This document shows positions 6,450-51,331 of a DNA stretch of 64,000 nt, piece after piece. Origin of the DNA: Octopus vulgaris. Lineage: Eukaryota. The DNA is taken from NCBI GenBank assembly GCA_951406725.2, contig OX597827.1:64418001-64482000 (forward strand), in the 5' to 3' direction. A program made the position numbers and the translations under genes. Numbering within the stretch: position 1 is the first letter of the stretch; every line of letters starts with the position of its first letter. The notes beneath the pieces are model-generated. The model ran no database searches, was not told where the DNA came from, and worked only from the letters and a program-made list of their open reading frames with translations.

Positions 6450-6484
<35 letters not shown>

Positions 6485-8884
6485 TAGATTCTATTTATAG
6501 ATTCTATTTATAGATTCTATATATAGATACTATTTATAGATTCTATTTATAGATTATATTTATAGATACTATTTATAGATTTGAACCAGTTTGAACCGGT
6601 TTGAACCAGTTTGAACCGGTTTGAACTGGTTTGACCAGTTTGAACCGGTTTGAATTTATAGCTACTATTTATAGATTCTATTTATAGATTCTATTTATAG
6701 ATTCTATTTATAGATTCTATTTATAGATTCTATTAATAGATTCTATTTATAGATTCTATTTATTTATTTATTTATTTATAGATTCTATTTATAGATTCTA
6801 TTTATAGATTCTATTTATAGATACTATTTATAGATTCTATTTATAGATTCTATATATAGATTCTAATTATAAATTCTATTTATAGATTCTATTCATTTAT
6901 TTATTTATTTATTTATTTATAGATTCTATTTATAGATTCTATTTATAGATTCTATTTATAGATTCTATTTATATATTTATTTATTTATTTATAGATTCTA
7001 TATATAGATTCTATTTATAGATTCTATTTATAGATTCTATTTATAAATTCTATTTATAGATTCTATTCATTTATTTATTTATTTATTTATTTATAGATTC
7101 TATTTATAGATTCTTTTTATAGATTCTATTTATAGATTCTATTTATAGATTCTATTTATAGATTCTCTTTATAGATTCTATTTATAGATTCTATTTATAG
7201 ATTCTATTTATAGATACAATTTATTTACTTATTTTTTTATTTATAGATTCTATTTATAGATTCTATTTAAGGATTCTATTAATAGATTCTATTTATAGAT
7301 TCTATTAATAGATTCTATTAATAGATTCTATTAATAGATTCTATTTATAGATCCTATTTATAGATTCTATTTATAGATTCTATTTATAGATTCTATTTAT
7401 AGATTCTATTTATAGATTCTATTTATAGATTCTATTTATAGATTCTATTTATAGATACAATTTATTTACTTATCTATTTATTTATAGATTTTATTAATAG
7501 ATTCTATTTATAGATTCTATTAATAGATTCTATTAATAGATTCTATTTATAGATTCTATTTATAGATTCTATTAATAGATTCTATTTATAGATTCTATTT
7601 ATAGATTCTATATATAGATTCTATTTATAGATTTTATTTATTTATTTATTTATTTATAGATTCTATTTATAGATTCTATTTATAGATTCTATTTATAGAT
7701 TCTATTTATAGATTCTATTTATAGATTCTATTTATAGATACAATTTATTTACTTATTTATTTATTTATAGATTCTATTAATAGATTCTATTTATAGATTC
7801 TATTAATAGATTCTATTAATAGATTCTATTTATAGATTCTATTTATAGATTCTATTAATAGATTCTATTTATAGATTCTATTTATAGATTCTATATATAG
7901 ATTCTATTTATAGATTCTATTTATTTATTTATTTATTTATTTATTCATAGATTCTATTTATAGATTCTATTTATAGATTCTATTTATATATTCTATTTAT
8001 AGATTCTATTTATAGATACAATTTATTTACCTATTTATTTATTTATAGATTCTATTTATAGATTCTATTAATAGATTCTATTTATAGATTCTATTAATAG
8101 ATTCTATTAATAGATTCTATTAATAGATTCTATTTATAGATTCTATTTATAGATTCTATTTATAGATTCTATTTATAGATTCTATTTATAGATTCTATTA
8201 ATAGATTCTATTTATAGATTCTATTTATAGATTCTATTTATAGATACTATTTATAGATTCTATTTATAGATACAATTTATTTACTTATTTATTTATTTAT
8301 AGATTCTATTTATAGATTCTATTTATAGATTCTATTTATAGATTCTATTAATAGATTCTATTAATAGATTCTATTAATAGATTCTATTCATAGATTCTAT
8401 TTATAGATTCTATTTATAGATTCTATTTATAGATACAATTTATTTACTTATTTATTTATTTATAGATTCTATTTATAGATTCTATTTATAGATTCTATTT
8501 ATAGATTCTATTAATAGATTCTATTAATAGATTCTATTAATAGATTCTATTCATAGATTCTATTTATAGATTCTATTTATAGATTCTATTAATAGATTCT
8601 ATTTATAGATTCTATTTATAGATTCTATTTATAGATTCTATTTATAGATTCTATTTATAGATTCTATTTATAGATTCTATTTATAGATACAATTTATTTA
8701 CTTATTTATTTATTTATAGATTCTATTTATAGATTCTATTTATAAATTCTATTTATAGATTCTATTCATTTATTGATTTATTTATTTATAGATTCTATTT
8801 ATAGATTCTTTTTATAGATTCTATTTATAGATTCTATTTATAGATACTTTTTATTTATTTATTTATTTATAGATTCTATTTATA
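6362..8884 (+). repeat. AT-rich 13-bp satellite, forward orientation, with a 75-bp 10-mer insert at 6580-6654
   Basis: gattctatttata periodicity, with the subfamily variant gatacaatttatttactt recurring from about 7210. Confidence 0.96.
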
Positions 8885-9310
8885 GAACCAGTTTGAACCG
8901 TTTTGAATTGGTTAGATCCGGTTTGAACTTGTTTGATGTGGTTGAACCAGTTTGAACCGGTTTGAACTGGTTTGACCCGGTTTGAACCGATTTGAACTGG
9001 TTTGATCCGGTTTGAACCGGTTTGAACCAGTTTGAACTGGTTTGATACGGTTGAAACCAGACGAAACCGCTTCAAATCGAATAAAACCTAATCAAACCGG
9101 ATCAAAATGTCTGATGAAAATGTTTGATGAAAATGTTTGATGAAAATGTTTGATGAAAATTTTTGATGAAAATGACTGATGAAAATGTCTGATGAAAAAT
9201 GTTTGATGAAAATGTCTAATGAAAAACGTTTGATGAAAGTGTTTGATGAAAGAGTTTGAACTGGTTTGATCCGGTTTGAACCGGTTTGAACAGGTTTGAA
9301 ACTGTTTGAA
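8885..9310 (+). repeat. Composite 10-mer/linker/13-mer/10-mer module forming the left flank of the 58-bp array
   Basis: GGTTTGAACC units, the caaatcgaataaaacc linker at about 9073-9088, TGTTTGATGAAAA units, then 10-mers running directly into the 58-mer. Confidence 0.93.
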
Positions 9311-12300
9311 CCATTCCTCCCCTTCACCTTCAAATCCCACTATCTGGAATGTTCAATATTCCTACTTCCCCTTCCTCCATTTCACCTTAAAATCCCCCTC
9401 TCTGGAATGTTCAGTATCCCTTCTTCCCCTTCCTCTGCTTCACCTACAAATCCCCCTCTCTGGAATGTTCCATATTCCTTTCTCCACTTCCGCCCCTTCA
9501 ACTTCAAATCCCCCTCTATGGAATGTTCAATATTCCGTCCTCCCCTTCCGCCCCTTCACCTTCAAATCCCCCTCTCTGGAATGTTCAATATTCCTTCCCC
9601 CCCTTCACCTTCAAATCCCCCTCTCCGGAATGTTCAATATTCCTCCGTCCCATTTCTCCCCTTCACCTCAAACCCCCTCTGTGGAATGTTCAATATTCTT
9701 TCCTCACCTTCCTCTCCTTCACCTTCAAATCCCACTCCCTGGAATGTTGAATATTCCTTCTACACATTCCTCCCCTTCACCTTCAAATCCCACTCTCTGG
9801 AATGTTCAATATACCTACCTCCCCTTTCTCCATTTCACCCTCAAATCCCCCCCTCTCGAAAGTTCAGTATCCCTTCCTCAACTTACTCCCCTTCACATTT
9901 AAATCCCCCTCTCTGGAATGTTCAATATTCCGTCCTCCACTTCCACCCCTTCACCTTCAAATACCCCTCTCTGGAATGTTCAATATTCCGTCCTCCCTTT
10001 CTGCTCCTTCACCTTGAAATCCCCCTCTCCGGAATGTTCAATATTCCTCCCCCCTTCACCTTCAAATCACCCTCTCTGGTATGTTGAATATTCCTTCCTC
10101 CACTTCCTCCCCTTCACCTTCAAACCCCTCTCTCTGGAATGTTCAATATTCCTTCCCCCCTTCCTCCCCATCACTTTCAAATCTCCCTCTCTGGAATGTT
10201 GAATATTCCTTCATCCCATTCCTCCCCTTTACCTACAAATCCCACTCTCTGGAATGTGGAATATTCCTTCTTCCCATTCCTCCGCTTCACCTTCAAATCC
10301 TACTATCTGGAATGTTCAATATTCCTACCTCCCCTTCCTCCATTTCACCTTCAAATCCCCCCTCTGGAATGTTCAGTATCCCTTCCTCCCCTTCCTCCCC
10401 TTCACCTTCAAATCCCCCTGTCTGGAATGTTCCATATTCCTTCCTCCACTTCCGCCCCTTCACCTTCAAATCCCCCTCTATGGAATGTTCAATATACCGT
10501 CCTCCCCTTCCGCCCCTTCACCTTCAAATCCCCCTCTGTGGAATGTTCAATATTCCTTCCCCCCTTCACATTGAAATCCCCCTCTCTGGAATGTTCAATA
10601 TTCCTTCCTCCCCTTCCTCCCCTTCACCTTCAAAACCCCCTCTCTGGAATATTGAACATTCCTTCTTCCCATTCCTCCGCTTTACCTTCAAATCCCACTC
10701 TCTGGAATGTTGAATATTCCTTCCTCCCCTTCGCCACCTTCACCCTCAAAACCCCCTCTCTGGAATATTGAACATTCCTTCTTCCCATTCCTCCGCTTTA
10801 CCTTCAAATCCCACTCTCTGGAATGTTCAATATTCCATCCTCCCCTTCCGCCCCTTCACCTTCAAATCCCCCTCTCTGGAATGTTCAATATTCCTTCCCC
10901 CTTCACCTTCAAATCCCCCTCTCTGGAATGTTCAATATTCCTCTGTCCCTTTCCTCCCCTTCACCTCAAATCCCCCTCTCTGGAATGTTCAATATTCCAT
11001 ACTCCGCTTCCTCCACTTCACCTTCAAAACCCCTCTCTGGAATGTTCAGGATTCCTTCCTCTCCGTCCTCCATTCGCCGTCAAATCCCCCTCTATGGAAT
11101 GTTCAATATTCCTCCCTCGCCTTTCTCCCCTTCACCTTTAATCCCCCTCTCTGGAATGTTCAATATTCCTTCCTCCCCTTCCTCCGCTTCACCTTTAAAT
11201 CCCCCTCTTTGGAATGTTCAATATAACTTCCTCCACTTCCTCTCCTTCACCTTCAAATCCCCCTCTCTGGAATGTTCAATATTCCTCCCTCCCCTTCTTC
11301 CCCTTCACCTATAAATCCCCCTCTCTGGAATGTTCAATATTCCTTCCTCCATTTCTTCCCCTTCAACGTAAATTCCCATTCTATGGAATGTTCAATATTC
11401 CTTATTCCCCTTGCTCCCCTTCACATTTAAATCACCCTCTCTGGAATGTTCAATATTCCTTCTTCCCCTTCCTCCATTGACCTTCAAATCCCCCTCTCTG
11501 GAATGTTCAATATCCCTTCTTCCCATTCATCCCTTCACCTTCAAATCCCCCTCTCTGGAATGTTCAGGCTTCCTTCCTCCCCGTCCTACCCTTCACCGTC
11601 AAACCCCCCTCTCTGGAATGTTCAATATTCCTTCCTCCCCTTCTCCCCTTCACCTTAAAATACCCTCTCTGGAATGATCAATATTCCTTCCTTTCTTTCC
11701 TCCCCTTCACCTATAAATCCCCCTCACTGGAATGTTGAATATTCCTTCCTGCACTGCCTCCCCTTCACCTTCAAACCCCTCTCTCTGGAATGTTCAATAC
11801 TCCTTCCCCCCTTCCTCCCCATCACTTTCAAATCCCCCTCTCTGGAATGTTGAATATTCCTTCGTCCCATTCCTCCCCTTTACCTACAAATCCCACTCTC
11901 TGGAATGTTGAATATTCCTTCTTCCCATTCCTCCTATCACCTTCAAATCCCACTATCTGGAATGTTCAATATTCCTACCTCCCCTTCCTCCATTTCACCT
12001 TCAAATCCCCCTCTCTGGAATGTTCAGTATCCCTTCCTCCACTTCCGCCCCTTCACCTTCAAATCCCCCTCTATGGAATGTTCAATATACCGTCCTCCCC
12101 TTCCTCCCCTTCACCTTCAAATCCCCCTCTGTGGAATGTTCAATATTCCTTCCCCCCTTCACATTGAAATCCCCCTCTCTGGAATGTTCAATATTCCTTC
12201 CTCCCCTTCCTCCCCTTCACCTTCAAATGCCCCTCTCTGGAATATTGAACATTCCTTCTTCCCATTCCTCCGCTTTACCTTCAAATCCCACTCTCTGGAA

Positions 12301-15300
12301 TGTTGAATATTCCTTCTACCCATTCCTCCTCTTCACCTGCAAATCCCACTCTCTGGAATGTTCAATATTCCTACCTCCCCTTTCTCCATTTCACCTTCAA
12401 ATCCCCCTCTCTGGAATGTTCAGTATCCCTTCCTCAACTTCCTCCCCTTCACATTTAAATCCCCCTCTCTGGAATGTTCAATATTCCTTCCTCCCCTTCC
12501 GCCCTGTCACCTTCAAATCCCCCTCTCTGGAATGTTGAATATTCCTTCTTCCCATTACTCACCTTACCTTCAAATCCCACCCTCTGGAATGTTGAATATT
12601 CCTTCTACCCATTCCTCCCCTTCACCTTCAAATCCAACTCTCTGGAATGTTTAATATTCCTACCTCCCCTTTCTCCATTTCACCTTCAAATCCCCCTCTC
12701 TGGAATGTTCAGTATTCCTTCCTCAACTTCCTCCCCTTCACCTTTAAATCACCCTCTCTGGAATGTTCAATATTCCTTCCTCCCCTTCCGCATCCTCACC
12801 TTCAAATCCCCCTCTCTGGAATGTTCAATATTCCGTCCTCCCCTTCCGCCTCTTCACCTTCAAATCCACCTCCATGGAATGTTCAATATTCCTTCACCCT
12901 CCACCTTCAAATCCCCCTGTCTGGAATGTTCAATATGCCTTCCTCCCCTTCCTCCCCTTCACCTTCAAAACCCCTCTCTGGAATGTTCAGGATTCCTTTC
13001 TCTCAGTCCTCCATTCGCCGTCAAATCCCCCTCTATGGAATGTTCAATATTCCTTCCTCCCCTTTCTCCCCTTCACCTTTAAATCCCCCTCTCCAGAATG
13101 TTCAATATTCCTTCCTCCCCTTCCTCCCCTTCACCTTTAAATCCCCCTCTTTGTAATGTTCAATATACCTTCCTCCCCTTCCTCTACTTCACCTTCAAAT
13201 CCCCCTCTCTGGAATGTTCAATATTCCTCCCTCCCCTTCTTCCCCTTCACCTATAAATCCCCCTCTCTGGAATGTTCAATATTCCTTCCTCTATTTCTTC
13301 CCCTTCACCGTAAATTCCCATTCTATGGAATGTTCAATATTCCTTATTCCCCTTCCTCCCCTTCACCTTTAAATAACCCTCTCTGGAATGTTCAATATTC
13401 CTTCTTCCCCTTCCTCCCCTTCACCTTCAAATCCCCCTCTCTGGAATGTTCAATATTCCTTCTTCCCATTCATCACTTCACCTTCAAATCCCCCTCTCTG
13501 GAATGTTCAGGATTCCTTCCTCCCCGTCCTACCCTTCACCGTCAAACCCCCTTCTCTGGAATGTTCAATATTCCTTCCTCTCTTTCCTCCCCTTCACCTA
13601 TAAACCCCCTCACTGGAATGTTCAATATTCCTTCTTCCCCTTCCTCCACTTCACCTTTAAATCCCCCTCTTTGGAATGTTCAATATTCCTTCCTCCCCTT
13701 CAATCCTTCAACTTCAAATCCCCCTCTCTGGAATGTTCAATATTCCTTCCTCCCCTTCCTCCCCTTCAACTTTAAATCCCCCTCTCCGCAATGTTCGATA
13801 TTCCTTCCTCCCCTTCCTCTCCTACACATTCAAATCCCCTTCTCAGAAATGTTAAATCATCCTCCCTCCCCTTCTTCCCCTTTACCTATAAATCCTTCTC
13901 TCTGGAATGTTCAATATTCCTTCCTCCATTTCCTCCCCTTTACCTTCAAATCCCACTCTCTGGAATGTTGAATATTCCTTCTTCCCATTCCCCCACTTCA
14001 ACTTCAAATCCCCCTCTCTGGAATGTTCAGCATCCCTTCCTCCCCTTCCTACACTTCACCTTCAAATCCCCCTCTCTGGAATGTTCAGTATCCCTTCCTC
14101 CCCTTCCTCCCCTTCACCTTCAAATCCCCCTCTCTGGAATGTTCAATATTCCTTCCCCCTTCACGTCCAAATCCCCCTCTCTGGAATGTTCAATATTCAT
14201 TCTTCCCATTCCTCCCCTTTACCTTCAAATCCCCCTCTCTGGAATGTTCAATATTCCTTCTTCCCATTCCTCCCCTTTACCTTGAATTCCCCCTCTCTGG
14301 AATGTTCAATATTCCTTCTTCCCATACCGCCCCTTTAACTTCAAATCCCCCTCTCTGGAATGTTCAATATTCCTTCCTCCCCTTCCTCCCCTTCACCTTC
14401 AAATCCCCCTCTCCGGAATGTTCAATATTCCATCCTCTCCTTCCTCCCCTTCACCTTCAAATCCCCCTCTCTGGAATGTTCAATATTCCTTCTTCCCATT
14501 CCTCCCCTTCACCTTCAAATCCCCCTCTCTGGAATGTTCAATATTCCTTCTTCCCATTCCTCCCGTTCACCTTCAAATCACCCTCTTTGGAATGTTCAAT
14601 ATTCCATCCTCCCCTTCCCATCACCTTCAAATCCCCCTCTCTGGAATGTTCAATATTCCTTCCACCCCTTCCTCCCTTCATCTTCAAAGCCCCCTCTCTG
14701 GAATGTTCAATATTCCTTCCTCCCCTTCCGCCTCTCCACCTTCAAATCCCCCTCTCTGGAATGTTCAATATTCCGTCCTCTCCTTCCGCCGCTTCACCTT
14801 CAAATCCACCTCCATGGAATGTTCAATATTCCTTCCCCCTGCACCTTCAAATCCCCCTCTCTGGAATGTTCAGGATTCCTTCCTCTCCGTCCTCCATTCG
14901 CCGTCAAATCCCCCTTTTATGGAATGTTCAATATTCCTTCCTCCCCTTCCGCCCCTTCACCTTTAAATCCCCCTCTCTGGAATGTTCAATATTCCTTCCT
15001 CCCCTTCAGCTTTAAATCCCCCTCTTTGTAATGTTCAATATACCTTCCTCCCCTTCCTCTCCTTCACCTTCAAATCCCCCTCTTTGGAATGTTCAATATT
15101 CCTCCCTCCCCTTCTTCCCCTTCACCTATAAATCCCCCTCTCTGGAATGTTCAATATTCCTTCCTCTATTTCCTCCGCTTCACCGTAAATTCCCATTCTA
15201 TGGAATGTTCAATATTCCTTATTCCCCTTCCTCCCCTTCACCTTTAAATCACTGTCTCTGGAATGTTCAATATTCCTTCATCCCCTTCCTCCCCTTCACC

Positions 15301-18300
15301 TTCAAATCCCCCTCTCTGGAATGTTCAATATTCCTTCTTCCCATTCATCCCTTCACCTTCAAATCCCCCTCTCTGGAATGTTCAGGATTCCTTCCTCCCC
15401 GTCCTACCCTTCACCGTCAAACCCCCCTCTCTGGAATGTTCAATATTCCTTCCTCCCATTCTCCAATTCACCTTAAAATCCCCCTCTCTGGAATGTTCAA
15501 TATTCCTTCCTTTCTTTCCTCCCCTTCACCTATAAATCCCCCTCACTGGAATGTTCAATATTCCTTCTTCCCCTTCCTCCAATTCACCTTTAAATCCCCC
15601 TCTTTGGAATGTTCAATATTCTTTCCTCCCCTTCCATCCTTCAACTTCAAATCCCCCTCTCTGGAATGTTCAATATTCCTTCCTCCCCTTCCTCCCCTTC
15701 CACTTTAAATCCCCCTCTCTGCAATGTTCAATATTCCTTCCTCCCCTTCCTCTCCTACACATTCAAATCCCCCTCTCAGGAATGTTCAATCCTCCTCCCT
15801 CCCCTTCTTCCCCTTTACCTATAAATCCTCCTCTCTGGAATGTTCAATATTCCTTCCTCCATTTCCTCACCTTTACCTTCAAATCCCACTCTCTGGAATG
15901 TTGAATATTCCTTCTTCCCATTCCTCCCCTTCAACTTCAAATCCCCTCCTCTGGAATGTTCAATATTCCTTCTTCCCCTTTCTTCATTTCACCTTCAAAT
16001 ACCCCTCTTTGGAATGTTCAGCATCCCTTCCTCCTCTTCCTACCCTTCACCTTCAAATCCCCCTCTCTGGAATGTTCAGTATCCCTTCCTCCCCTTCATC
16101 CCCTTCACCTTCAAATCCCCCTCTCTGGAATGTTCAATATTCCTTCCCCCTTCACGTCCAAATCCCCCTCTCTGGAATGTTCAATATTCCTTCCTCCCTC
16201 TCCTCCCCTTCACCTTCAAATCCCCCTATCTGGAATGTTCAATATTCCTTCCGTTCCTTCCTCCCATTCACCTTCAAATCCCCCTCTCTGGAATGTTCAA
16301 TATTCCTTCTTCCCATTCCTCCCCTTCACCCTGAAATCACCCTCTCTGGAATGTTCAATATTCCTTCTTCCCATTCCTACCCTCTACCATCAAATCCCCC
16401 TGTCTGGAATGTTCAATATTCAATCCTCCCCTTCCTCCCCTTCACCTTCAAATCCCCCTCTCTGGAATGTTGAACATTCCTTCTTCCCATTCCTCCGCTT
16501 TACCTTCAAATCCCCCTCACTGGAATGATCAATATTCCTTCCTCCAATTCCTCCCCTTCACCTTCAAATCCCCCTCCCTGGAATGTTCAATATTCCTTAC
16601 ACCCCTTCCTCCCCTTCACCTTCATATCCCCCTCTCTGGAATGTTCAATATTCCCTCCTCCTTTTCCTCCCCTTCAACTTCAAATCCCCCTCTCTGGAAT
16701 GTTCAATATTCCCTCCTCCCCTTCCTCCCCTTCACCTTCAAATTCCCCTCTCTGGAATGTTCAATATTCCTTCCTCCCCTCCCTCCCCTTCACCTTCAAA
16801 TCGCTCTCTCTGAAATGTTCAATATTCCTTCCTCCCCTTCCTCCCCTTCACCTTCAAATCCCCCTCTCTGGAATGTTCAATATATCTTCCTCCCCTTCCT
16901 CCCCTTCACCTTCAAATTTCCCTCTCTGGAATGTTCAATATGCCTTCCTCCCTTCACCTTCAAATCCCCCTCTCTGGAATGTTCAATATTCCCTCATCCT
17001 TTTCCTCGCCTCCACCTTCAAATCCCCCTCTCTGGAATGTTCAATATTCCTTCCTCCGCTTCCCCCCTTCACCTTCAAATCCCCCTCTATGGAATTTTCA
17101 ATATTCCTTCCTCTCCTTCCTCCCCTTCACATTCAAATCCCCCTCTCTGGAATGTTCAGGATTCCTTCCTCCCCGTCCTACCCTTCACCGTCAAACCCCA
17201 CTCTCTGGAATGTTCAATATTCCGTCCTCCCCTTCCTCCCCTTCACCTTCAAATCCCCCTCTCTGGAATGTTCAATATTCCTTCCTCCCTTTCCTCCCCT
17301 TCACCTTCAAATCCCCCTCTCTGGAATGTTCAATATTCCTTCCTCCTCCTCCTCCCCTTCATCTTCAAATCCCCCCTCCGGAATGTTCAATATTCCCTCC
17401 TCCTTTTCCAACCCTTCACCTTCAAATCCCCCTCTATGGAATGTTCAATATTCCTTCCACCTCTTCCTCCCCTTCATCTTCAAATCCCCCCTCCGGAATG
17501 TTCAATATTCCCTCCTCCTTTTCCACCCCTTCACCTTCAAATCCCCCTCTCTGGAATGTTCAATATTCCTTCCTCCACTTCCTTACCTTCACCTTCAAAT
17601 CCCCCTCTCTGGAATGTTCAATATTCCTTCTTCCCATTCCTCCCCATTACCTTCAAATGCCCCTCTCTGGAATGTTCAATATTCCTTCTTCCCATTCCTT
17701 ACCTTCACCTCCAAATCCCCCTCTCTGGATTGTTCAATATTCCTTCCTCCCCTTCGTCCCCTTCACCTTCAAATCCCCCTGTCTGGAATGTTCAATATGC
17801 CTTCCTCCCCTTCCTCCCCTTCACCTTCAAAACCCCTCTCTGGAATGTTCAGGATTCCTTTCTCTCAGTCCTCCATTCGCCGTCAAATCCCCCTCTATGG
17901 AATGTTCAATATTCCTTCCTCGCCTTTCTCGCCTTCACATTTAAATGCCCCTCTCTGGAATGTTCAATATTCCTTCCTCCCCTTCCTCCCCTTCACCTTT
18001 AAATCCCCCTCTTTGGAATGTTCAATATACCTTCCTCCCCTTCCTCTCCTTCACCTTCAAATCCCCCTCTCTGGAATGTTCCATATTCCTCCCTCCCCTT
18101 CTTCCCCTTCACCTATAAATCCACCTCTCTGGAATGTTCAATATTCCTTCCTCCATTTCCTCCCCTTCACCGTAAATTCCCATTCTATGGAATGTTCAAT
18201 ATTCCTTATTCCCCTTCCTCCCCTTCACCTTTAATTCACCCTCTCTGGAATGTTCAATATTCCTTCTTCCCCTTCCTCCCCGTTACCTTGAAATCCCCCT

Positions 18301-21300: not shown

Positions 21301-24300
21301 GTTCAATATTCCTTCCTCCCCTTCCTCCCATTCACCTTCAAATCCCCCTCTCTGGAATGTTCAATATTCCCTCCGCAATTTCCTCCCCTTCACCTTCAAA
21401 TCCCCCTCTCTGGAATGTCCAATATTCCTTCCTCCCCTTCCTCCCCTTTATCTTCAAATCCCCCACTCTGGAATGTTCAATATTCCATCCTCATTTTCCT
21501 CCCCTTCACCTTCAAATCCCCCTCTCTGGAATGTTCAATATCCCTTCCCCCCCTTCCTTCCCTTCACCTTCAAATCCCCCTCTCTGGAATGTTCAATATT
21601 CCTTCTTCCCATTCCTCCCATTTACCTTCAAATCCCCCTCTCTGGAATGTTCAATATTCCTTATTCCCATTCCTTACTTCCACCTTCAAATCCCCCTCTC
21701 TGGAATGTTCAATATTCCTTCCTCCCCTTCCTCCCCTTCACCTTCAAATCCCCCTCTCTGGAATGTTCAATATTCCTTCCTCCCCTTCACCTTCAAATCC
21801 CCCTCTCTGGAATGTTCAATATTCCTTCTTCCCATTCCTCCCATTTACCTTCAAATCCCTCTCTCTGGAATGTTCAATATTCCTTCCTCCCCTTCCTCCC
21901 CTTCATCTTCAAATCCCCATCTCTGGAATGTTCAATATTCCCTCCTCCTTTTCCTCCCCTTCACCTTCAAATCCCCCTCTGTGGAATGTTCAATATTCCT
22001 TCTTCCACTTCCTTCCCTTCACCTTCAAATCCCCCTCTCTGGAATGTTCAATATTCCTTCTACCCATTCCTCCCATTTACCTTCAAATCCCCCTCTCTGG
22101 AATGTTCAATATTCCTTCTTCCCATTCCTTACCTTCACCTTCAAATCCCCCTCTCTGGAATGTTCAATATTCCTTCCTCCCCTTCCTCCCCTTCACCTTC
22201 AAATGCCCGGTCTCTGGAATGTTCAATATTCCTTCCTCCACTTCCTCCCCTTCACCTTCAAATCCCCCTCTGGAATGTTCAATATTGCTTCTTCCCATTC
22301 CTCACATTTACCTTCAAATCCCCATCTCTGGAATGTACAATATTCCTTCGTACCCTTACTCCCCTTCATCTTCAAATCCCCCTCTCTGGAATGTTCAATA
22401 TTCCCTCCTCCTTTTCCTCCCCTTCACCTTCAAATCCCCTCTCTGGAATGTTCAATATTCCTTCCTCCCCTTCCTACCCATCACCTTGCAATCCCCCTCT
22501 CTGGAATGTTCAATATTCCTTCTTCCCATTCCTCCCATTTACCTTCAAATCCCCCTCTCTGGAATGTTCAATATTCCTTTTTCCCATTCCTTATTTACCT
22601 TCAAATCCCCATCTCTGGAATGTTCAATATTCCTTCTTCCCATTCCTTACCTTCACATTCAAATCCCCCTCACTGGAATGTTCAATATTCCTTCTTCCCA
22701 TTCCTCCCCTTTAACTTCAAATCCCCCTCTCTGGAATGTTCAATATTCCTTCTTCCCATTCCTTACCTTCACCTTGAAATCCCCCTCTCTGGAATGTTCA
22801 ATATTCCTTCTTCCCATTCCTCCCCTTTACCTTCAAATCCCCCTCTCTGGAATGTTCAATATTCCTTCTTCCCATTCCTCCCCTTAACCTTCAAATCCCC
22901 CTTTCTGGAATGTTCAATATTCCTTCTTCCCATTCCTCCCCTTCACCTTCATTCCTTCTGGAATGTTAAATATTCCCTCCTCCTTTTCCTCCCCTTCACC
23001 TGCAAATCCCCCTCTCTGGAATTTTCAATATTCCTTCCTCCCCTTCACCTTCAAATCCCCCTCTCTGGAATGTTCAGTACTCCTTCCTCCCCTTCACCTT
23101 CAAATCCCCCTCACTGGAATGTTCAATATTCCTTCCTCCCCTTCACCTTCAAATCCCCCTCTCCGGAATGTTCAATATTCCTTCCTCCCCTTCCTCCCAT
23201 TCACCTTCAAATCCCCCTCTCTGGAATGTTCAATATTCCCTCCTCCTTTTCCTCCCCTTCACCTTCAAATCCCCCTCTCTGGAATGTTCAATATTCCTTC
23301 CTCCCCTTCCTCCCTTTCATCTTCAAATCCCCCCTCTGGAATGTTCAATATTCCCTCCTCATTTTCCACCCCCTCACCTTCAAATCCCCCTCTCTGCAAT
23401 GTTCAATATTTCTTCCTCCACTTCCTTCCCTTCACCTTCAAATCCCCCTCTCTGGAATGTTCAATATTCCTTCCTCCCTTCCTCCCCTTCACCTTCAAAT
23501 CACCCTCTCTGGAATGTTCAATATTCCTTCCTCCCCTTCCTCCCCTTCAACTTCAAATCCCCCTCTCTGGAATGTTCAATATTCCTTCCTCCCCTTCCTC
23601 CCCTTCACCTTCAAATCCCCCTCTCTGGAATGTTCAATATTTCTTCTTCCAATTCCTCCCCTTTACCTTCAAATCCCCCTTTCTGGAATGTTCAATATTC
23701 CTTCTTCCCATTCCTCCCATTTACCTTCAAATCCCCCTATCTGGATTGTTCAATATTCCTTCTTCCCATTCCTTACGTTCACCTTCAATTCCCCCTCTCT
23801 GGAATGTTCAATATTCCTTCTTCCCATTTCTCCCATTTACTTTCAAATCCCCCTCTCTGGAATGTTCAATATTCCTTCCCCACCTTCCTGCCCTTCACCT
23901 TCAAATCCCCCTCTCTGTAATGTTCAATATTCCTTCCTCTCCTTCACCTTCAAATCCCCTCTCTGGAATGTTCAATATTCCTTCTTCCCATTCCTCCCAT
24001 TTACCTTCAAATCCCCCTCTCTGGAATGTTCAATATTCCTTCCTCCCCTTCCTCCCCTTCATCTTCAAATCCCCATCTCTGGAATGTTCAATATTCCCTC
24101 CTCCTTTTCCTCCCCTTCACCTTCAAATCCCCCTCTGTGGAATGTTCAATATTCCTTCTTCCACTTCCTTCCCTTCACCTTCAAATCCCCCTCTCTGGAA
24201 TGTTCAATATTCCTTCTACCCATTCCTCCCATTTATCTTCAAATCCCCCTCTCTGGAATGTTCAATATTCCTTCTTCCCATTCCTTACCTTCACCTTCAA

Positions 24301-42300: not shown

Positions 42301-45300
42301 CTTCCCATTCCGCACCTTTAACTTCAAATCCCCCTCTAGAAATGTTCAATATTCCTTCCTCCCCTTCCTCCCCTTCACCTTCAAATCCCCCTCTCTGGAA
42401 TGTTCAATATTCCTTCCTCTACTTCCTCCCCTTCACCTTCAAATCCCCCTCTCTGGAATGTTCAATATTCCTTCTTCCCATTCCTCCCCTTTACCTTCAA
42501 ATCCTCCTCTCTTGAATGTTCAATATTCGTTCTTCCCATTCCTCCCTTTTACCTTCAAATCCCCCTCTCTGGAATGTTCAATATTCCTTCCTCCCCTTCC
42601 CTTAACCTTCAAATCCCCCTCTCTGGAATGTTCAATATTCCTTCCAACACTTCCACCCTATTCCTTCAAATCCCCCGCTCTAGAATGTTCAATATTCCTT
42701 CCTCCCCTTCACCTTCAAATCTCCCTCTCTGGAATGTTCGATATTCCTTCTTCCCATTCCTCCACTTTACCTTCAAATCCCCCTCTCTGGAATGTTCAAT
42801 ATTCCTTCTTCCCATTCCTTACCTTCACCTTCAAATCCCCTCTCTTGAATGTTCAATATTCCTACTTCCCATTCCTTAAATACACCTTCAAATCCCCCTA
42901 TCTGGAATGTTCAATATTCCTTCTTCCTTTCCTCCCCTTTACCTTGAAATCCCTCTCTCTGGAATGTTCAATATTCCTTCTTCCCATTCCTACACTTTAC
43001 CTTCAAATCCCCCTCTCTGGAATGTTCAATATTCCTTCCTTCCCATTCCTTACCTCCACCTTCAAATCCCCCTTTCTGGAATGTTCAATATTCCGCCCCT
43101 TCACCTTCAAATCCCCCTCACTGGAATGTTCAATATTCCTTCCTCCCCTTCCTCACCTTCACCTTCAAATCCCCCTCTCTGCAATGTTCAATATTCCCTC
43201 CTCATTTTCCTCACCTTCACCTTCAAATCCCCCTCTCTGGAATCTTCAATATTCCTTCCTCCCCTTCCTCCCCTTCACCTTCAAATCACGCTCTCTGGAA
43301 TGTTCAATATTCCATCTTCCCATTCCTCACCTTTACCTTCAAATCCTCCTCTCTGGAATGTTCAATATTCCTTCCTCCCCTTCCTCCACTTCAACTTCAA
43401 ATCCCGCTCTCTGGAATGTTCAATATTTCTTCCTCCCATTCCTCCCCTTCACCTTCAAATCCCCCTCTCTGGAATGTTCAATATTCCTTCCTAACCTTCC
43501 TCCCCTTCACCTTCAAATCCCCCTATCTAGAATGTTGAATATTCCTTCCTCCCCTTCGTCCCCTTCACCTTCAAATCCCGCTCTCTGGAATGTTCAATAT
43601 TCCTTATTCCTATTCCTCCCCTTTACCTTCAAATCCCCCTCTCTGGAATGTTCAATATTCCTTCTTCCCATTCCTCCACTTTACCTTCAAAACCCCCTCT
43701 CTGGAATGTTCAATATTCCTTCTTCCCATGCCTCCCCTTCACCTTCAAATCCCCCTCTCTGGAATGTTCAATATTCATTCTTCCCATTCCTCCCCTTTAC
43801 CTTCAAATCCCCCTCTCTGGAATGTTCAATATTCCTTCTTCCCATTCCTTCCTATTCACCTTCAAATCCCCCTCTCTGGAATGTTCAATATTCCTTCTTC
43901 CCATTCCTCCCCTTTACCTTGAATTCCCCATCTCTGGAATGTTCAATATTCCTTCTTCCCATTCCTCCCCTTCACCTTCAAATCCCCCTCTCTGGAATGT
44001 TCAGTATTCCTTCTTCCCATTCCTTACCTTCACCTTCAAATCCCCTCTCTGGAATGTTCAATATTCCTACTTCCCATTCCTTAAATTCACCTTCAAGTCC
44101 CCTATCTGGAATGTTCAATATTCCTTCTTCCCATTCCTCCCCTTTACCTTGAAATCCCCCTCTCTGGAATGTTCAATATTCCTTCCTTCCCATTCCTACA
44201 CTTTACCTTCAAATCCCCCTCTCTGGAATTTTCAATATTCCTTCCTTCCCATTCCTTACCTTCACCTTCAAATCCCCCTCTCTGGAATGTTCAATATTCC
44301 TTCCCCCCCTTCCTCCCCTTCACCTTCAAACCCCCACTCTGGAATGTTCAATATTCCTTCCTTCCCATTCCTTACCTTCACCTTCAAATCCCCCTCTCTG
44401 GAATGTTCAATATTCCTTCTTCCCATTCCTCCCAGTTACCTTCAAATCCCCCTCTCTGGAATGTTCAATATTCCTTCCTCCAGTTCCTCCCCTTCACCTT
44501 CAAATCCCCCTCTCTGGAATTTTCAATATTCCCTCCTCATTTTCCTCACCTTCACCCTTCAAATCCCCCTCTCTGGAATGTTCAATATTCCTTCCTCCCC
44601 TTCCTCCCCATTCACCTTCAAATCACGCTCTCTGGAATGTTCAATATTCCTTCCTCCCATTCCTCCCCTTCACCTTCAAATCCTCCTCTCTGGAATGTTC
44701 AATATTCCTTCCTCCCCTTCCTCCACTTCACCTTCAAATCCCGCTCTCTGGAATGTTCAATATTTCTTCCTCCCATTCCTCCCCTTCCACCTTCAAATCC
44801 CCCTCCCTGGAATGTTCAATATTCCTTCCTACCCCTTCCTCCCCTTCACCTTCAAATCCCACTCTCTGGAATGTTGAATATTCCTTCCTCTCCTTCCTCC
44901 CCTTCACCTTCAAATACCCCTCTCTGGAATGTTCAATATTCCCTCCTCCCCTTCACCTTCAAATCCCCCTCACTGGAATGTTCAATATTCCTTCTTCCGA
45001 TTCCTTACATTCACCTTCAAATCCCCCGCTCTGGAATGTTCAATATTCCTTCTTCCCATTCCTCCCCTTTACCTTCAAATCCCCCTCTCAGGAATGTTCA
45101 ATATTCCTTCTTCCCATTCCTCCAAGTTACCTTCAAAACCGCCTCTCTGGAATGTTCAATATTCCTTCTTCCCATGCCTCCCCTTCACCTTCAAATCCCC
45201 TCTCTGGAATGTTCAATATTCCTTCTTCCCATTCCTCCCCTTTACCTTCAAATCCCCCTCTCTGGAATGTTCAATATTCCTTCTTCCCATTCCTTACCTT

Positions 45301-48300
45301 CACCTTCAAATCCCCCTCTCTGGAATGTTCAATATTCCTTCTTCCCATTCCTCCCCTTTACCTTCAATTCCCCCTCTCTGGAATGTTCAATATTCCTTCT
45401 TCCTATTCCGCACATTTAACTTCAAATTCCCCTCTCTGGAATGTTCAATATTCCTTCCTCCCCTTCCTCCCCTTAACCTTCAAATCCCCTCTCTGGAATG
45501 TTCAATATTCCTTCCTCTCCCTTCCTCCCCTTCACCTTCAAATCCCCCTCTCTGGAATGTTCAATATTCCTTCTTCCCCTTCCTCCCCTTTACCTTCAAA
45601 TCCCCCTCTCTGGAATGTTCAATATTCATTCTTCCCATTCCTCCCCTTTACCTTCAAATCCCCCTCTCTGGAATGTTCAATATTCCTTCTTCCCCTTCCT
45701 CCCCTTCACCTTCAAATCCCCCTCTCTGGAATGTTCAATATTCCTTCCTCCCCTTCCCTTCACCTTCAAATCCCCCTCTCTGGAATGTTTAATATTCCTT
45801 CTTCCCCTTCCTCCCCTTCACCTTCAAATCCCCCTCTCTGGAATGTTCAATATTCCTTCCACCCCTTCCCCCTACTCCTTCAAATACGCCTCTCTAGAAT
45901 GTTCAATATTCCTTCCTCCCCTTCCTCCCCTTCACCTTCAAATCTCCCTCTCTGGAATGTTCAATATTCCTTCTTCCCATTCCTCCCCTTTACCTTCAAA
46001 TCCCCCTCTCTGGAATGTTCAATATTCCTTCTTCCCATTCCCCTTCACCTTCAAATCCCCCTCTCTGGAATGTTCAATATTCCTACTTCCCATTCCTTAC
46101 ATTCACCTTCAAATCCCCCTATCTGGAATGTTCAATATTCCTTCTTCCCATTCCCCCCTTTACCTTGAAATCCCCCTCTCTGGAATGTTCAATATTCCTT
46201 CTTCCCATTCCTAACCTTTACCTTCAAATCCCCCTCTCTGGAATGTTCAATATTCCTTCCTTCCCATTCCTTACCTTCACCTTCAAATCCCCCTCTCTGG
46301 AATGTTCAATATTCCGCCCCTTCACCTTCAAATCCCCCTCTCTGGAATGTTCAATATTCCTTCCTCCCCTTCCTCCCCTTCACCTTCAAATCCCCCTCTC
46401 TGGAATGTTCAATATTCCTTCCTCATTTTCCTCACCTTCACCTTCAAATCCCCCTCTCTGGAATGTTCAATATTCCTTCCTCCTCTTCCTCCCCTTCACC
46501 TTCAAATCCCCCTCCCTGGAATGTTCAATATTCCTTCTACACATTCCTCCCCTTTACCTTCAAATCCCCCTCTCTGGAATGTTCAATATTCCTTCCTCCC
46601 CTTCCTCCACTTCACCTTCAAATCCCCCTCCCTGGAATGTTCATTATTCCTTCCTCCCCTTCACCTTCAAATCCCCCTCTCTGGAATGTTCAATATTCCT
46701 TCCTCTCCTTCCTCCCCTTCACCTTCAAATCCCCCTCTCTGGAATGTTCAATATTCCTTCTTCCCATTCCTACCCTTTACCTTCAAATCCCCCTCTCTGG
46801 AATGTTCAATATTCCTTCTTCCCATTCCTCCCCTTCACCTTCAAATCCCCCTCTCTGGAATGTTCAATATTCCTTCCTCGCCTTCCCTTCACCTTCAAAT
46901 CCCCCTCTCTGGAATGTTTAATATTCCTTCTTCCCCTTCCTCCCCTTCACCTTCAAATCCCCCTCTCTGGAATGTTCAATATTCCTTCCAACCCTTCCCC
47001 CTACTCCTTCAAATCCCCCTCTCTAGAATGTTCAATATTCCTTCCACCCCTTCCTCCCCTTCACCTTTAAATCTCCCTCTCTGGAATGTTCAATATTCCT
47101 TCTTCCTATTCCTCCCCTTTACCTTCAAATCCCCCTCTCTGGAATGTTCAGTATTCCTTCTTCCCATTCCTTACCATCACCTTCAAATCCCCTGTCTGGA
47201 ATGTTCAATATTCCTACTTCCCATTCCTGAAATTCACCTTCAAATCCCCCTATCTGGAATGTTCAATATTCCTTCTTCCCATTCCTCGCCTTTACCCTGA
47301 AATCCCCCTCTCTGGAATGTTCAATATTCCTTCTTCCCATTCCTACCCTTTACCTTCAAATCCCCATCTCTGGAATGTTCAATATTCCTTCCTCCCATTC
47401 CTTCCCCTTCACCTTCAAATCCCCCTCTCTGGAATGTTCAATATTCCGCCCCTTCACCTTCAAATCCCCCTCTCTGGAATGTTCAATATTCCTTCCTCCC
47501 CTTCACCTTCAAATCCCCCTCTCTGCAATGTTCAATATTCCCTCCTCATTTTCCTCACCTTCACCTTCAAATCCCCCTCTCTGGAATGTTCAATATTCCT
47601 TCTTCCTATTCCTCCCCTTTACCTTCAAATCCCCCTCTCTGGAATGTTCAATATTCCTTCTTCCCATTCCTCACTTTACCTTCAAATCCCCCTCTCTGGA
47701 ATGTTCAATATTCCTTCTTCCCATTCCTCCCCTTCACCTTCAAATCCTCCTCTCTGGAATGTTCAATATTCATTCTTCCCATTCCTCATCTTTACCTTCA
47801 AATCCCCCTCTCTGGAATGTTCAATATTCCTTCTTCCCATTCCTTATATTCACCTTCAAATCCCCCTCTCTGGAATGTTCAATATTCCTTCTTCCCATTC
47901 CTCCCCTTTACCTTCAAATCCCCCTCTCTGGAATGTTCAATATTCCTTCTTCCCATTCCGCACCTTTAACTTCAAATCCCCCTCTCTGGAATGTTCAATA
48001 TTCCTTCCTCCCCTTCCTCCCCTTCACCTTCAAATCCCCCTCTCTGGAATGTTCAATATTCCTTCCTCTCCTTCCTCCCCTTCACCTTCAAATCCCCCTC
48101 TCTGGAATGTTCAATATTCCTTCCTTCCTTTCCTCCCCTTTACCTTCAAATCCCCCTCTCTGGAATGTTCAATATTCCTTCTTCCCATTCCTCCCCTTTA
48201 CCTTCAAATTCCCCTCTCTGGAATATTCAATATTCCTTCCTCCCCTTCCCTTCACCTTCAAATTTCCCTCTCTGGAATGTTCAATATTCCTTCTTCCCCT

Positions 48301-51300
48301 TCCTCCCCTTCACCTTCAAATCCCCCTCTCTGGAATGTTCAATATTCCTTCCACCCCTTCCTCCCCTACTCCTTCAAATCCCCCTCTCTGGAATGTTCAA
48401 TATTCCTTCCTCCCCTTCCTCCCCTTTACCTACAAATCCTCCTCTCTGGAATGTTCAGTATTCCTTCTTCCCATTCCTCCCCTTCACCTTCAAATCCCCT
48501 CTCTGGAATGTTCAATATTCCTACTTCCCATTCCTTACATTCACCTTCAAATCCCCCTATCTGGAATGTTCAATATTCCTTCTTCCCATTCCTCCCCTTT
48601 ACCTTCAAATCCCCCTCTCTGGAATGTTCAATATTCCTTCCTCCCATTCCTACCCTTTACCTTCAAATCCCCCTCTCTGGAATGTTCAATATTCCTTCCT
48701 TCCCATTCCTTACCTTCACCTTCAAATCCCCCTCTCTGGAATGTTCAATATTCCGACCTTTCACCTTCAAATCCCCCTCTCTGGAATGTTCAATATTCCT
48801 TCCTTCCCTTCCTCCCCTTCACCTTCAAATCCCCCTCTCTGCAATGTTCAATATTCCCTCCTCATTTTCCTCACCTTCACCTTCAAATCCCCCTCTCTGG
48901 AATGTTCAATATTCCTTCCTCCCCTTCCTCCCCTTCACCTTCAAATCACCCTCTCTGGAATGTTCAATATTCCTTCCTCCCTTCCTCCCCTTCACCTTCA
49001 AATCCCCCTCTCTGGAATGTTCAATATTCCTTCCTCCCGTTCCTCCCCTTCACCTTCAAATCCCCCTCTCTGGAATGTTCAATATTCCTTCCTCCCATTC
49101 CTCCCCTTCACCTTCAAATCCCCCTCTCTGGAATGTTCAATATTCCTTCCTCCCGTTCCTCCCCTTCACCTTCAAATCCCCCTCTCTGGAATGTTCAATA
49201 TTCCTTCCTCCCGTTCCTCCCCTTCACCTTCAAATCCCCCTCTCTGGAATGTTCAATATTCCTTCCTCCCGTTCCTCCCCTTCACCTTCAAATCCCCCTC
49301 TCTGGAATGTTCAATATTCCTTCTCCCCTTCCTCCCCTTCACCTTCAAATCCCCCCTCTGGAATGTTCAATATTCCCTCCTCCTTTTCCACCCCTTCACC
49401 TTCAAATCCCCCTCTCTGGAATGTTCAATATTCCTTCCTCCCATTCCTTCCCTTCACCTTCAAATCCCCCTCTCTGGAATGTTCAATATTCCTTCTTCCA
49501 ATTCCTCCCCTTTACCTTCAAATCCCCCTATCTGGAATGTTCAATATTCCTTCTTCCCATTCCCCCCTTTACCTTGAAATCCCCCTCACTGGAATGTTCA
49601 ATATCCCTTCTTCCCATTCCTACCCTTTACCTTCAAATCCCCCTCTCTGGAATGTTCAATATTCCTTCCTTCCCATTCCTTACCTTCACCTTCAAATCCC
49701 CCTCTCTGGAATGTTCAATATTCCTTCTTCCCATTCACCTTCAAATCCCCCTCTCTGGAATGTTCAATATTCCTTCCTTCCCTTCCTCCCCTTCACCTTC
49801 AAATCCCCCTCTCTGCAATGTTCAATATTCCTTCCTCAATTTCCTCACCTTCACCTTCAAATCCCCCTCTCTGGAATGTTCAATATTCCTTCCTCCCCTT
49901 CCTCCCCTTCACCTTCAAATCACCCTCTCTGGAATGTTCAATATTCCTTCTTCCCATACCTCCCCTTTACCTTCAAATCCCCCTCTCTGCAATGTTCAAT
50001 ATTCCTTCCTCCCCTTCCTCCACTTCACCTTCAAATCCCCCTCTCTGGAATGTTCAATATTCCTTCCTCCCGTTCCTCCCCTTCACCTTCAAATCCTCCT
50101 CCCTGGAATGTTCAATATTCCTTCCTCCCCTTCCTCCCCTTCACCGTAAAATCCCCCTCTCTGGAATGTTCAATATTCCTTCCTCCCCTTCCTCTCCTTC
50201 ACCTTCAAATCCCCCTCTCTGGAATGTTCAATATTCCTTCCTCCCCTTCCTCCCCTTCAACTTCAAATCCCCCTCTCTGGAAAGTTCAATATTCCTTTCT
50301 CCCCTTCCTCCCCTTCACCTTCAAATCCCCCCTCTGGAATGTTCAATATTCCCTCCTCCTTTTCCACCCCTTCACCTTCAAATCCCCCTCTCTGGAATGT
50401 TCAATATTCCTTCCTCCATTCCTTCCCTTCACCTTCAAATCCCCCTCTCTGGAATGTTCAATATTCGTTCTTCCAATTCCTCCCCTTTACCTTCAAATCC
50501 CCCACCCTGGAATGTTCAATATTCCTTCTTCCCATTCCTTACCTTCACCTTCAAATCCCCCTCTCTGGATTGTTCAATATTCCTTCCTCCCCTTCCTCCT
50601 CTTCACCTTCAAATCCCCCTCTCTTGAATGTTCAATATTCCTTCCTCCCCTTCCTCCCCTTCACCTTCAAATCCCCCTCTCTGGAATGTTCAATATTCCT
50701 TCCTCCACTTCCTCCCCTTCACCTTCAAATCCCCCTCTCTGGAATGTTCAATATTCCTTTTTCCAATTCCTCCCCTTTACCTTCAAATCCCCCTCTCTGG
50801 AATGTTCAATATTCCTTCATCCCATTCCTTACCTTCACCTTCAAATCCCACTCTCTGGATTGTTCAATATTCCTTCTTCCCATTCCTTACGTTCACCTTC
50901 AAATCCCCCTCTCTGGAATGTTCAATATTCCTTCTTCCCATTCCTTACCTTCACCTTCAAATTCCCCTCTCTGGAATGTTCAATAATCCTTCTTACCATT
51001 CCTCCCCTTTACCTTCAAATCCCCCTATCTGGAATGTTCAATATTCCTTCTTCCCATTCCTCCCCTTTACCTTCAAATCCTCCTCTCTGGAATGTTCAAT
51101 ATTCCTTTTTCCCATTCCTTACAATCACCTTCAAATCCCCCTCTCTGGAATGTTTAATATTCCTTCTTCCCATTCCTCCCTTTTACCTTCAAATTCCCCT
51201 CTCTGGAATGTTCAATATTCCTTCTTCCCATTCTTCCCCTTTACCTTCAAATCCCCCTCTCTGGAATGTTCAATATTCCTTCCTCCCCTTCCTCCCCGTC

Positions 51301-51331
51301 ACCTTCAAATCTGGAATGTTCAGTATTCCTT
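9311..51331 (+). repeat. 42-kb satellite array of a 58-bp monomer, consensus TGGAATGTTCAATATTCCTTCCTCCCCTTCCTCCCCTTCACCTTCAAATCCCCCTCTC (about 730 copies)
   Basis: Uninterrupted head-to-tail periodicity in a single orientation. There are two common monomer types (ttcctccccttc...ttcacc and ttcttcccattc...tttacc) plus 48-bp and 53-bp deletion variants. Copy number is length divided by 58 and is approximate. Confidence 0.98.

What the first reader, a model, noticed from the sequence alone, without database searches (positions are those of the whole stretch)
9311..51331. The 58-bp satellite looks like a 42-kb transcription-factor landing pad: overlapping TEAD and heat-shock motifs in a conserved palindromic core
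Seen in sequence: each monomer has a well-conserved core CTCTGGAATGTTCAATATTCC, while most variation falls in the C/T tract. Established knowledge: TGGAATGT is the TEAD/Scalloped MCAT motif (reverse complement ACATTCCA), and CTC-tg-GAA-tg-TTC is one base from the three-unit heat-shock element TTCnnGAAnnTTC. Perfect HSE variants occur, for example at 22903, 23681 and 25059. Human GGAAT satellite III is known to recruit HSF1 into nuclear stress bodies and has been reported to bind TEAD. Inference: about 700 tandem sites could form a convergent stress- or Hippo-responsive satellite platform in a cephalopod, which I do not know to have been described.
Basis: partly seen in the sequence, partly recalled or inferred. 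Interest (0 to 1): 0.72.

Follow-up and report, generated by a model that had tools for sequence, protein, structure and literature searches.

The report
TEAD-site satellite in motif mosaics
This 42-kb repeat is a locally expanded copy of a scattered satellite whose unit carries one textbook site for the growth-control protein TEAD, which would likely bind it, and it sits among other short repeats that resemble sites for other gene regulators, whereas its heat-shock-like look is lost in sister arrays and is probably a coincidence.

Summary
The array is real: 733 full 58-bp monomers, 645 with a full TEAD pattern, 11 perfect heat-shock elements (HSE) at the stated places. The heat-shock reading fails. 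The base the HSE needs has swept to T in sister arrays (2 of 380 monomers keep GAAnnTTC on C4), and perfect HSEs are no commoner than other changes at that column. The 'conserved core' mostly reflects base context. It is not clearly better kept than the non-homopolymer stretch beside it (ratio 0.84, p=0.08), and shows no excess in 15 older loci after context correction (x1.04).

The TEAD half survives. The genome's TEAD recognition helix equals the human one. The unit occurs at 19 loci on 12 contigs; at 12 of them it adjoins other short repeats matching TCF, Grainyhead, MEF2, POU or STAT sites, or a 9-bp exact TEAD double motif. 7 of 13 unit lineages hit a strict motif, against 1.6 in shuffles and 0 of 26 control repeats; the panel was chosen after seeing the units. 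The scan noted this mosaic before on other DNA (e1-10340363). Binding, transcription and function are untested.

The parts
9311..51331 (+). 58-bp satellite array, 733 full monomers, mean identity 0.92 to own consensus; built from block duplications (commonest best-match offsets 92 and 38 monomers)
21681..21738 (+). example monomer identical to the consensus
21702..21718 (.). 17-bp quasi-palindrome of the example monomer (8-bp arms, one mismatch, 1-bp centre); perfect in the older 59-bp form; weak hairpin (-2.5 kcal/mol, z -1.3)
21700..21708 (-). TEAD single-motif pattern (RMATTCCWD, from PMC12008814) in the example monomer; 645 such sites on this strand of the array
22903..22915 (+). one of 11 perfect three-unit HSE variants (others at 23681, 25059, 25834, 27203, 29346, 31306, 32518, 36611, 40830, 43074)
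10646..10662 (.). core inverted in place (three linked changes); also at 10762 and 12239 with shared flanks, likely one template-switch event copied twice
1..8845 (.). 13-bp satellite with 394 MEF2-type palindromic matches (motif recalled); continues about 33 kb beyond the window
8885..9312 (+). 10-bp (Grainyhead-type, motif recalled) and 13-bp blocks joining the two large arrays
51338..58321 (.). mosaic of 10-bp and 13-bp blocks in both orientations, 50 Grainyhead-type palindromes; right end of the whole mosaic

Best explanation
The array is a long local expansion of one unit of a dispersed family of short satellites that are stitched into mosaics, and each monomer carries an inherited TEAD site that TEAD would likely bind when the chromatin is open, most likely as a passive or silenced motif cluster and not as a selected heat-shock platform. 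Shown: the unit lies at 19 loci on 12 contigs; a 59-bp form has a perfect palindrome with two inverted TEAD patterns, and the 58-bp form has only one; the array grew by block duplication; blocks moved between chromosomes as composites (same junction on C14 and C18); neighbouring units match other transcription-factor sites more often than shuffles. Inferred: the 59-bp form is the older one; the family descends from enhancer-like motif clusters, and factor binding favoured their spread or expansion; the lower mutation count of the core comes mainly from its being the only purine-rich part of a polypyrimidine monomer; the HSE look is a by-product of GGAATGT standing in a palindrome.
For: Family and loci. 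Unit forms. Block duplications. Shared junction C14:64,381,290 and C18:20,308,482, read by eye. TEAD pattern 15.6 per kb against 0.17 per kb in 206,577 flank bases. TEAD helix identical to human over 39 of 40 aligned residues after the exon start. 9-bp unit equals the Tead double-motif spacing of PMC12008814 (2 to 172 matches at each of 13 of 27 loci). Motif panel: 10 of 13 units against 3.1-3.6 in shuffles; after merging related units 7 of 13 strict hits against 1.6 (0 of 3000 shuffles), 4 of 13 non-palindromic hits against 0.8 (9 of 3000), and 0 of 26 control repeats. HSE loss. Context explains the core.
Against: The motif panel was written after I had seen the units and after reading note e1-10340363, and 34 of its 35 motifs are recalled, so the enrichment is inflated by an unknown amount. 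The later loci gave only 3 new unit types (1 strict hit, 1 weak hit, 1 miss). Motif columns are better kept than other columns for TCF (p=0.012), borderline for MEF2, ARE, 9-bp TEAD and 59-bp TEAD (p 0.05-0.09), and not for POU, STAT or Grainyhead. The long arrays lost the second TEAD site in a sweep, which is against steady drive for more TEAD sites. The right arm is not protected when it is a full TEAD site (10 left against 22 right events; Fisher p=0.34 against the other class). Against the 'passive' part: the six GGAATG columns stay low in the long arrays after context terms (x0.59-0.65, p 0.003-0.013), though not in the older loci (x0.85, p=0.44). 7 of 19 loci have no other family unit beside them in the DNA fetched.
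Confidence: 0.52

Rival explanations
1. Ordinary neutral satellite: motif matches in this and the neighbouring units are chance plus a bias towards palindromes, and no factor matters to the family's history.
For: A TEAD pattern arises in 6% of shuffled monomers. No excess conservation after context in 15 older loci. Three of eight motif tests show no conservation. Panel is post hoc.
Against: Non-palindromic strict motifs still hit 4 of 13 against 0.8; 0 of 26 control repeats hit; the 9-bp unit has the exact cooperative TEAD spacing and alternates in regular cassettes with TCF- and Grainyhead-type units at several loci.
Confidence: 0.2
2. Host-selected TEAD/YAP platform: the array concentrates TEAD and its co-activator as a sink, condensate seed or long-range enhancer, like human satellite 3.
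For: 645 full sites in 42 kb, about 90 times flank density. Left hexamer unchanged in 23 of 23 consensus sequences and low in long arrays after context terms. Unit present under four organism labels. Selection on single monomers is expected to be weak, so flat per-column tests do not exclude it (inference).
Against: Small share of the genome's sites (about 1%, extrapolated) against 24-58% for human satellite 3 (PMC11526998, passage). No family unit near the rDNA array. No double motif in the array. Only repeats and transposon fragments recognised in about 10-25 kb of flank (output partly cut). Array size varies from under 1 kb to over 40 kb between loci.
Confidence: 0.15
3. Heat-shock platform: HSF binds the near-perfect elements and drives stress transcripts or nuclear stress bodies.
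For: 536 of 733 monomers hold a three-unit element with at most one mismatch, 11 perfect. HSF1-like exon present. The centre C is kept in 14 of 15 older loci, so HSF could still bind this array in passing.
Against: GAAnnTTC is left in 2 of 380 monomers on C4 and 282 of 674 on C7; centre is T in 45 of 66 at C8:91.7 Mb. Perfect variant not enriched (12 T, 25 A, 11 G); 8 of 511 in older loci. HSE columns are not better kept than spacer columns (35.4 against 28.8 events per column). The typical HSE has three contiguous units (PMC11059408, passage).
Confidence: 0.06
4. Internal repeats of a non-autonomous mobile element (Helitron or MITE type) whose ends carry the mosaics around.
For: Dispersed small insertions with sharp borders; composite blocks shared between chromosomes.
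Against: Flanks of 9 loci share only scattered repeats, with no common terminus at the borders and no evident target-site duplication; no match in viral or metagenome contigs. The later loci were inspected by eye only.
Confidence: 0.04
5. Centromeric or pericentromeric satellite, favoured for its dyad symmetry.
For: 8-bp arms with at most one mismatch occur in 0.8% of shuffles. Four long arrays lie 5-9 Mb from a contig end.
Against: Two or three loci on the same contig for C7, C8, C9, C10, C11; arrays are small; hairpin weak; the homogeneous 65-bp neighbour was listed only on C2 and C31.
Confidence: 0.03

Closest known systems
Human satellite 3 as TEAD/HSF1 platform (PMC11526998; abstract, passages and Discussion read; supplements not seen)
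   Same: Tandem repeat dense in GGAATG; TEAD DNA-binding helix identical; HSF-type elements in a subset.
   Different: 58-bp complex unit with one site, not GGAAT pentamers; tens of kb, not megabases; about 1% (estimate) against 24-58% of genome TEAD motifs; not beside rDNA; binding not measured; no sign of common origin.
MORC3-restricted tandem repeats with homotypic motif clusters, such as the IFNB1-MRE (PMC13373173; abstract and one results section read; lead from note e1-10340363)
   Same: Tandem repeats that are homotypic clusters of factor motifs; most had no general enhancer activity, which fits a silenced-cluster reading.
   Different: Up to 61 motifs at single loci there; here hundreds per array, a dispersed family, and several different single-factor units interleaved. 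No chromatin data here.
Tead double motif (PMC12008814; passages read)
   Same: The family's 9-bp unit is an exact concatemer of the double-motif pattern; the 58-bp unit holds the single-motif pattern.
   Different: The window's array has 0 double motifs; the 59-bp form has two sites inverted with a 3-bp gap, a geometry not described in the passages I read.
Satellite library with concerted evolution; transposon-linked satellites of molluscs (recalled; PMC12628747 seen only as a search listing)
   Same: Many short families at low copy, one amplified locally, array-specific variants swept.
   Different: No carrier element ends found; units are rich in factor-like motifs.

Membership tests
Satellite DNA family | Long head-to-tail array of a fixed monomer | tested here: met
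   732.4 copies of 58 bp, 86% matches
Satellite DNA family | Several arrays with array-specific swept variants | tested here: met
   columns 1, 42, 45, 54, 56 differ between arrays; 19 loci
Satellite DNA family | Non-coding, no known RNA family | tested here: inconclusive
   plus strand has stop-free runs up to 1475 codons because the consensus lacks stop triplets, with frequent indels; no Rfam match in 9311-14000, the only part of the array scanned
Heat-shock element array | Three contiguous inverted nGAAn units (PMC11059408) | tested here: not met
   perfect in 11 of 733; one mismatch allowed 536 of 733
Heat-shock element array | Element kept across the family | tested here: not met
   GAAnnTTC in 2 of 380 (C4), 282 of 674 (C7); centre T in 45 of 66 (C8)
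Heat-shock element array | HSF binding and stress-induced RNA | not testable with these tools
   no chromatin data; no RNA holder on record
TEAD site cluster | Full single motif RMATTCCWD | tested here: met
   645 bottom-strand and 10 top-strand matches in 733 monomers
TEAD site cluster | Cognate TEA domain with conserved recognition helix | tested here: met
   two exons on C3; alignment to human TEAD4/TEAD1 chains, E 5.5e-20
TEAD site cluster | Cooperative double-motif spacing | tested here: not met
   0 in the window's array; present in the related 9-bp unit
TEAD site cluster | Motif under constraint | tested here: inconclusive
   x0.59-0.65 in long arrays, x0.85 (p=0.44) in older loci, mirror test not supportive
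TEAD site cluster | Binding in cells | not testable with these tools
   needs CUT&RUN, DiMeLo-seq or EMSA
Human satellite 3-type platform | Holds a large share of the genome's TEAD motifs | tested here: not met
   3,534 exact cores against about 470,000 background sites extrapolated from 35 in 206,577 flank bases; assembly gaps in some arrays may hide copies
Human satellite 3-type platform | Lies beside rDNA arrays | tested here: not met
   tandem rDNA on C20:23.96-24.07 Mb (best 40 candidates only); 0 hits for 8 unit probes in 200 kb at and around it
MORC3-restricted motif-cluster repeats | Homotypic motif cluster in a tandem repeat | tested here: met
MORC3-restricted motif-cluster repeats | Closed by MORC-type repression, enhancer on release | not testable with these tools
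   no chromatin or perturbation data
Centromeric satellite | One major locus per chromosome | tested here: not met
   2-3 loci on five contigs
Helitron/MITE-borne satellite | Shared element ends around the repeats | tested here: not met
   flank comparison of 9 loci; later loci by eye

The most novel reading that the evidence does not exclude
The genome carries a family of satellites assembled from signal-responsive factor sites (Hippo/TEAD, Wnt/TCF, Grainyhead, STAT, POU, MEF2), interleaved like synthetic reporter cassettes. They spread and expand because those factors bind them, and this 42-kb array is the family's TEAD block, loading hundreds of TEAD molecules at one place.
Probability: 0.27. 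Interest if true: 0.8.

Novelty: new variant of a known kind. Interest (0 to 1): 0.44.

Why it matters
Factor-binding satellites are known from humans, mice and flies, but mostly as single families. If binding is confirmed, this genome would offer a natural panel: the same dispersed family with TEAD-only, TCF-only, Grainyhead-only and mixed blocks from under 1 kb to over 40 kb, with swept variants that remove one site or the HSE. That would allow a direct test of whether factor binding biases which repeats expand. If binding is absent, the array is an ordinary satellite.

Tried and rejected
Expression: no RNA holder listed among 24 runs. One run guessed to be RNA holds the monomer, but the silent control stretch was blank in all four runs, DNA included, so nothing follows. 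Laying a monomer on runs of three other organism labels showed tandem copies but listed no variant columns; one of them was flagged as a possible source of this DNA. Taxon check by protein search: one unnamed hit. Centromere idea from the layered C2 end: dropped. rDNA link: none. Viral and metagenome contigs: 0 matches. Coding reading: long stop-free runs follow from composition. Hairpin: weak. Origin of the palindrome as a fold-back of the 9-bp unit: one fold-back with the same 3-bp gap at C6:22.90 Mb and no exact 9-bp/58-bp junction by pattern in 909,707 bases; left as a lead. First control set for the motif panel was mostly microsatellite-like (1 of 44 hit) and was not relied on. ORF fragment beside the C18 mosaic: no Pfam match. 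A held-out test of the panel gave almost only known units. Rows dropped: monomers with N or cut ends; monomers with gaps in columns 30-53, and classes under 20 monomers, in the mirror test; monomers under 70% identity or with over 12 gaps. C7 was sampled in four stretches and C4 in 380 of about 457 monomers. Literature searches (listings only) showed no description of this family; the library lacks most subscription journals.
Full report
1. Observation. Tandem Repeats Finder gives a 58-bp array at 9314-51311, 732.4 copies. An anchor-free wraparound alignment gave 733 full monomers. The exact 21-bp core is in 389 of them, TGGAATGT in 632, and perfect TTCnnGAAnnTTC in 11, including the three named positions. 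Raw substitution is 3.0% per column in the core, 5.7% in the non-homopolymer columns 11-23 and 12.6% in the C/T tract. The core holds a 17-bp quasi-palindrome with a 1-bp centre; arms this long occur in 0.8% of 3,000 shuffles, but the hairpin is weak. Three monomers carry the whole core inverted in place with shared flanks, which I read as one template-switch event. The array is made of duplicated blocks (commonest best-match offsets 92 and 38 monomers).

2. Is the core specially conserved? Because copies are related, I clustered variants by shared neighbours into approximate events across five long arrays (2,705 monomers). C columns mutate about twice as often as A/T columns, and columns among pyrimidines more often still. 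With those terms the 21-bp core effect is x0.85 (p=0.105), while the six GGAATG columns stay low (x0.59-0.65, p 0.003-0.013). In an independent set, 460 unique monomers from 15 loci of the 59-bp form, the core is x1.04 (p=0.73) and GGAATG x0.85 (p=0.44) after the same terms, and the AAAT columns outside the core are as well kept as AAT inside. A mirror test does not favour TEAD: the right arm mutates more than the left whether or not it is a full TEAD site (22 against 10, and 139 against 94; Fisher p=0.34). The right arm lies in the pyrimidine tract and the context terms overlap with 'core', so these tests cannot fully separate context from constraint. Selection on single monomers of a long array would also be weak (inference).

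3. The family. The genome (G000, 2.8 Gb) has 1,305 exact copies of this core and 3,534 of a generalised one. I saw the unit at 19 loci on 12 contigs, up to three per contig; more are unlisted. Long 58-bp arrays lie on C4, C5, C7, C11 and C14. A 59-bp form with a perfect palindrome is scattered in short, more diverged arrays, and C11 mixes both core types, so I infer the 59-bp form is older. Runs under four organism labels from 7 studies hold the unit; one may be the source of this DNA.

4. Heat-shock reading. The typical HSE has three contiguous units (PMC11059408, two passages), and an HSF1-like exon exists. In this array 536 of 733 monomers are within one mismatch. But the dyad centre, the C of TTC, is the core column that sweeps. 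GAAnnTTC remains in 2 of 380 monomers on C4 and 282 of 674 on C7, the centre is T in 45 of 66 at C8:91.7 Mb, and G in 11 exact cores of a roughly 37-monomer array upstream on C14. It is kept in 14 of 15 older loci. The perfecting change is not enriched (12 T, 25 A, 11 G). With GGAATGT fixed, 10.3% of shuffles give a near-HSE. HSF may bind this array in passing, but it is not a kept feature of the family.

5. TEAD reading. The single-motif pattern RMATTCCWD (PMC12008814, passages) occurs 655 times in the array, 15.6 per kb against 0.17 in flanks. The TEA domain's recognition helix matches human TEAD. The left hexamer is unchanged in all 23 consensus sequences. On the other side, the long arrays lost the second, inverted site; the array has no double motif; one shuffled monomer in 17 holds the pattern by chance; the family holds roughly 1% of the genome's patterns (extrapolation) against 24-58% for human satellite 3 (PMC11526998, passage); and none of eight unit probes hits near the rDNA array on C20.

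6. The surroundings change the picture. The array lies in a 105-kb mosaic of short repeats, and 12 of 19 loci have other units beside them. The same junction appears on C14 and C18, with no shared element ends. The units include a 9-bp repeat that is an exact concatemer of the Tead double motif (38 exact 42-mers at 9 loci), alternating in regular cassettes with a 22-bp TCF-type and a 10-bp Grainyhead-type unit, plus MEF2-, STAT- and two POU-type units. These names, apart from TEAD, are recalled consensus motifs. A 35-motif panel hits 10 of 13 units against 3.1-3.6 in shuffles. After merging related units and adding three found later, strict motifs hit 7 of 13 against 1.6 (0 of 3,000 shuffles), non-palindromic ones 4 of 13 against 0.8 (9 of 3,000), and 0 of 26 control repeats from another region. 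The panel was post hoc. Within families, motif columns are better kept for TCF (p=0.012), borderline for four units and not for POU, STAT or Grainyhead. I had seen the TCF, STAT, POU and ARE words; the Grainyhead and MEF2 names and the MORC3 paper came from note e1-10340363, which reported this mosaic from another array and is not independent support.

7. Mechanism. Shown: dispersal of composite blocks, local growth by block duplication, sweeps at the dyad centre and second arm. Inferred: descent from enhancer-like motif clusters; TEAD binding when accessible; a mostly silenced or passive state, as for most MORC3-restricted motif-cluster repeats, which had no general enhancer activity (PMC13373173, abstract and one section). 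I give this 0.52; a purely neutral satellite 0.20; a selected TEAD/YAP platform 0.15; a heat-shock platform 0.06; element-borne repeats 0.04; centromeric 0.03.

8. Novelty. It works like known motif-cluster satellites but fails the scale and rDNA features of human satellite 3. Five searches (listings only) showed no account of this family or of interleaved single-factor satellites; the library is incomplete and no supplements were read. Verdict: new variant of a known kind, interest 0.44. The interest lies in the mosaic family more than in this array, and no binding or expression evidence exists yet.

Noticed in passing
G000:C2:215,530,838-215,584,024 (L056-L061): 53-kb array of a 65-bp unit at 98% identity, flanked on both sides by 34-bp arrays and then older units, about 19 kb from the contig end; a second array on C31:10.27-10.34 Mb. 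No panel motif in the unit.
   Followed up: partly
L079-L080, L083-L086 (C11:20.83, C15:40.69, C17:56.77 Mb): Regular cassettes of 9-bp TEAD-type, about four 22-bp TCF-type and about ten 10-bp Grainyhead-type units, repeated many times like a synthetic reporter.
   Followed up: partly
L077 (C8:56,728,150-56,729,380): A degenerate TTAGGG telomere-type tract of about 1.2 kb lies inside a mosaic, and a short similar tract near the C10:34.39 Mb array; may hint at break repair or a subtelomeric source.
   Followed up: no
window 10646, 10762, 12239: The 17-bp core is inverted in place in three monomers with shared flanks.
   Followed up: partly
window 9311-51331: Divergence from consensus falls from 0.11 at the left end to 0.06 at the right, and a C>A variant that makes CATTCC in the tract is in 253 of 733 monomers.
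   Followed up: partly
L091 (C7:45,074,624-45,076,213): An 85-bp unit with a perfect octamer-type word beside 52-bp, 9-bp and 59-bp units.
   Followed up: partly
L079 (C11:20,824,135-20,824,335): A short repeat rich in TGACGT half-sites between 9-bp TEAD-type blocks; no hit in the fixed panel.
   Followed up: no
L039:1190-1675 (minus strand): Open frame fragment that runs into the C18 mosaic; reminded me of a DNA-transposon protein (recalled), no Pfam match.
   Followed up: partly
L072:1102-1938 (minus strand): Single-exon HSF-domain frame of 278 codons on C2, apart from the HSF1-like exon on C4; one unnamed relative at 44% identity.
   Followed up: partly
G000:C20:23.96-24.07 Mb: Tandem rDNA with an 18.4-kb period and 141-bp and 189-bp spacer repeats; more than 30 further scattered 5.8S-like copies among the best 40 matches.
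   Followed up: partly
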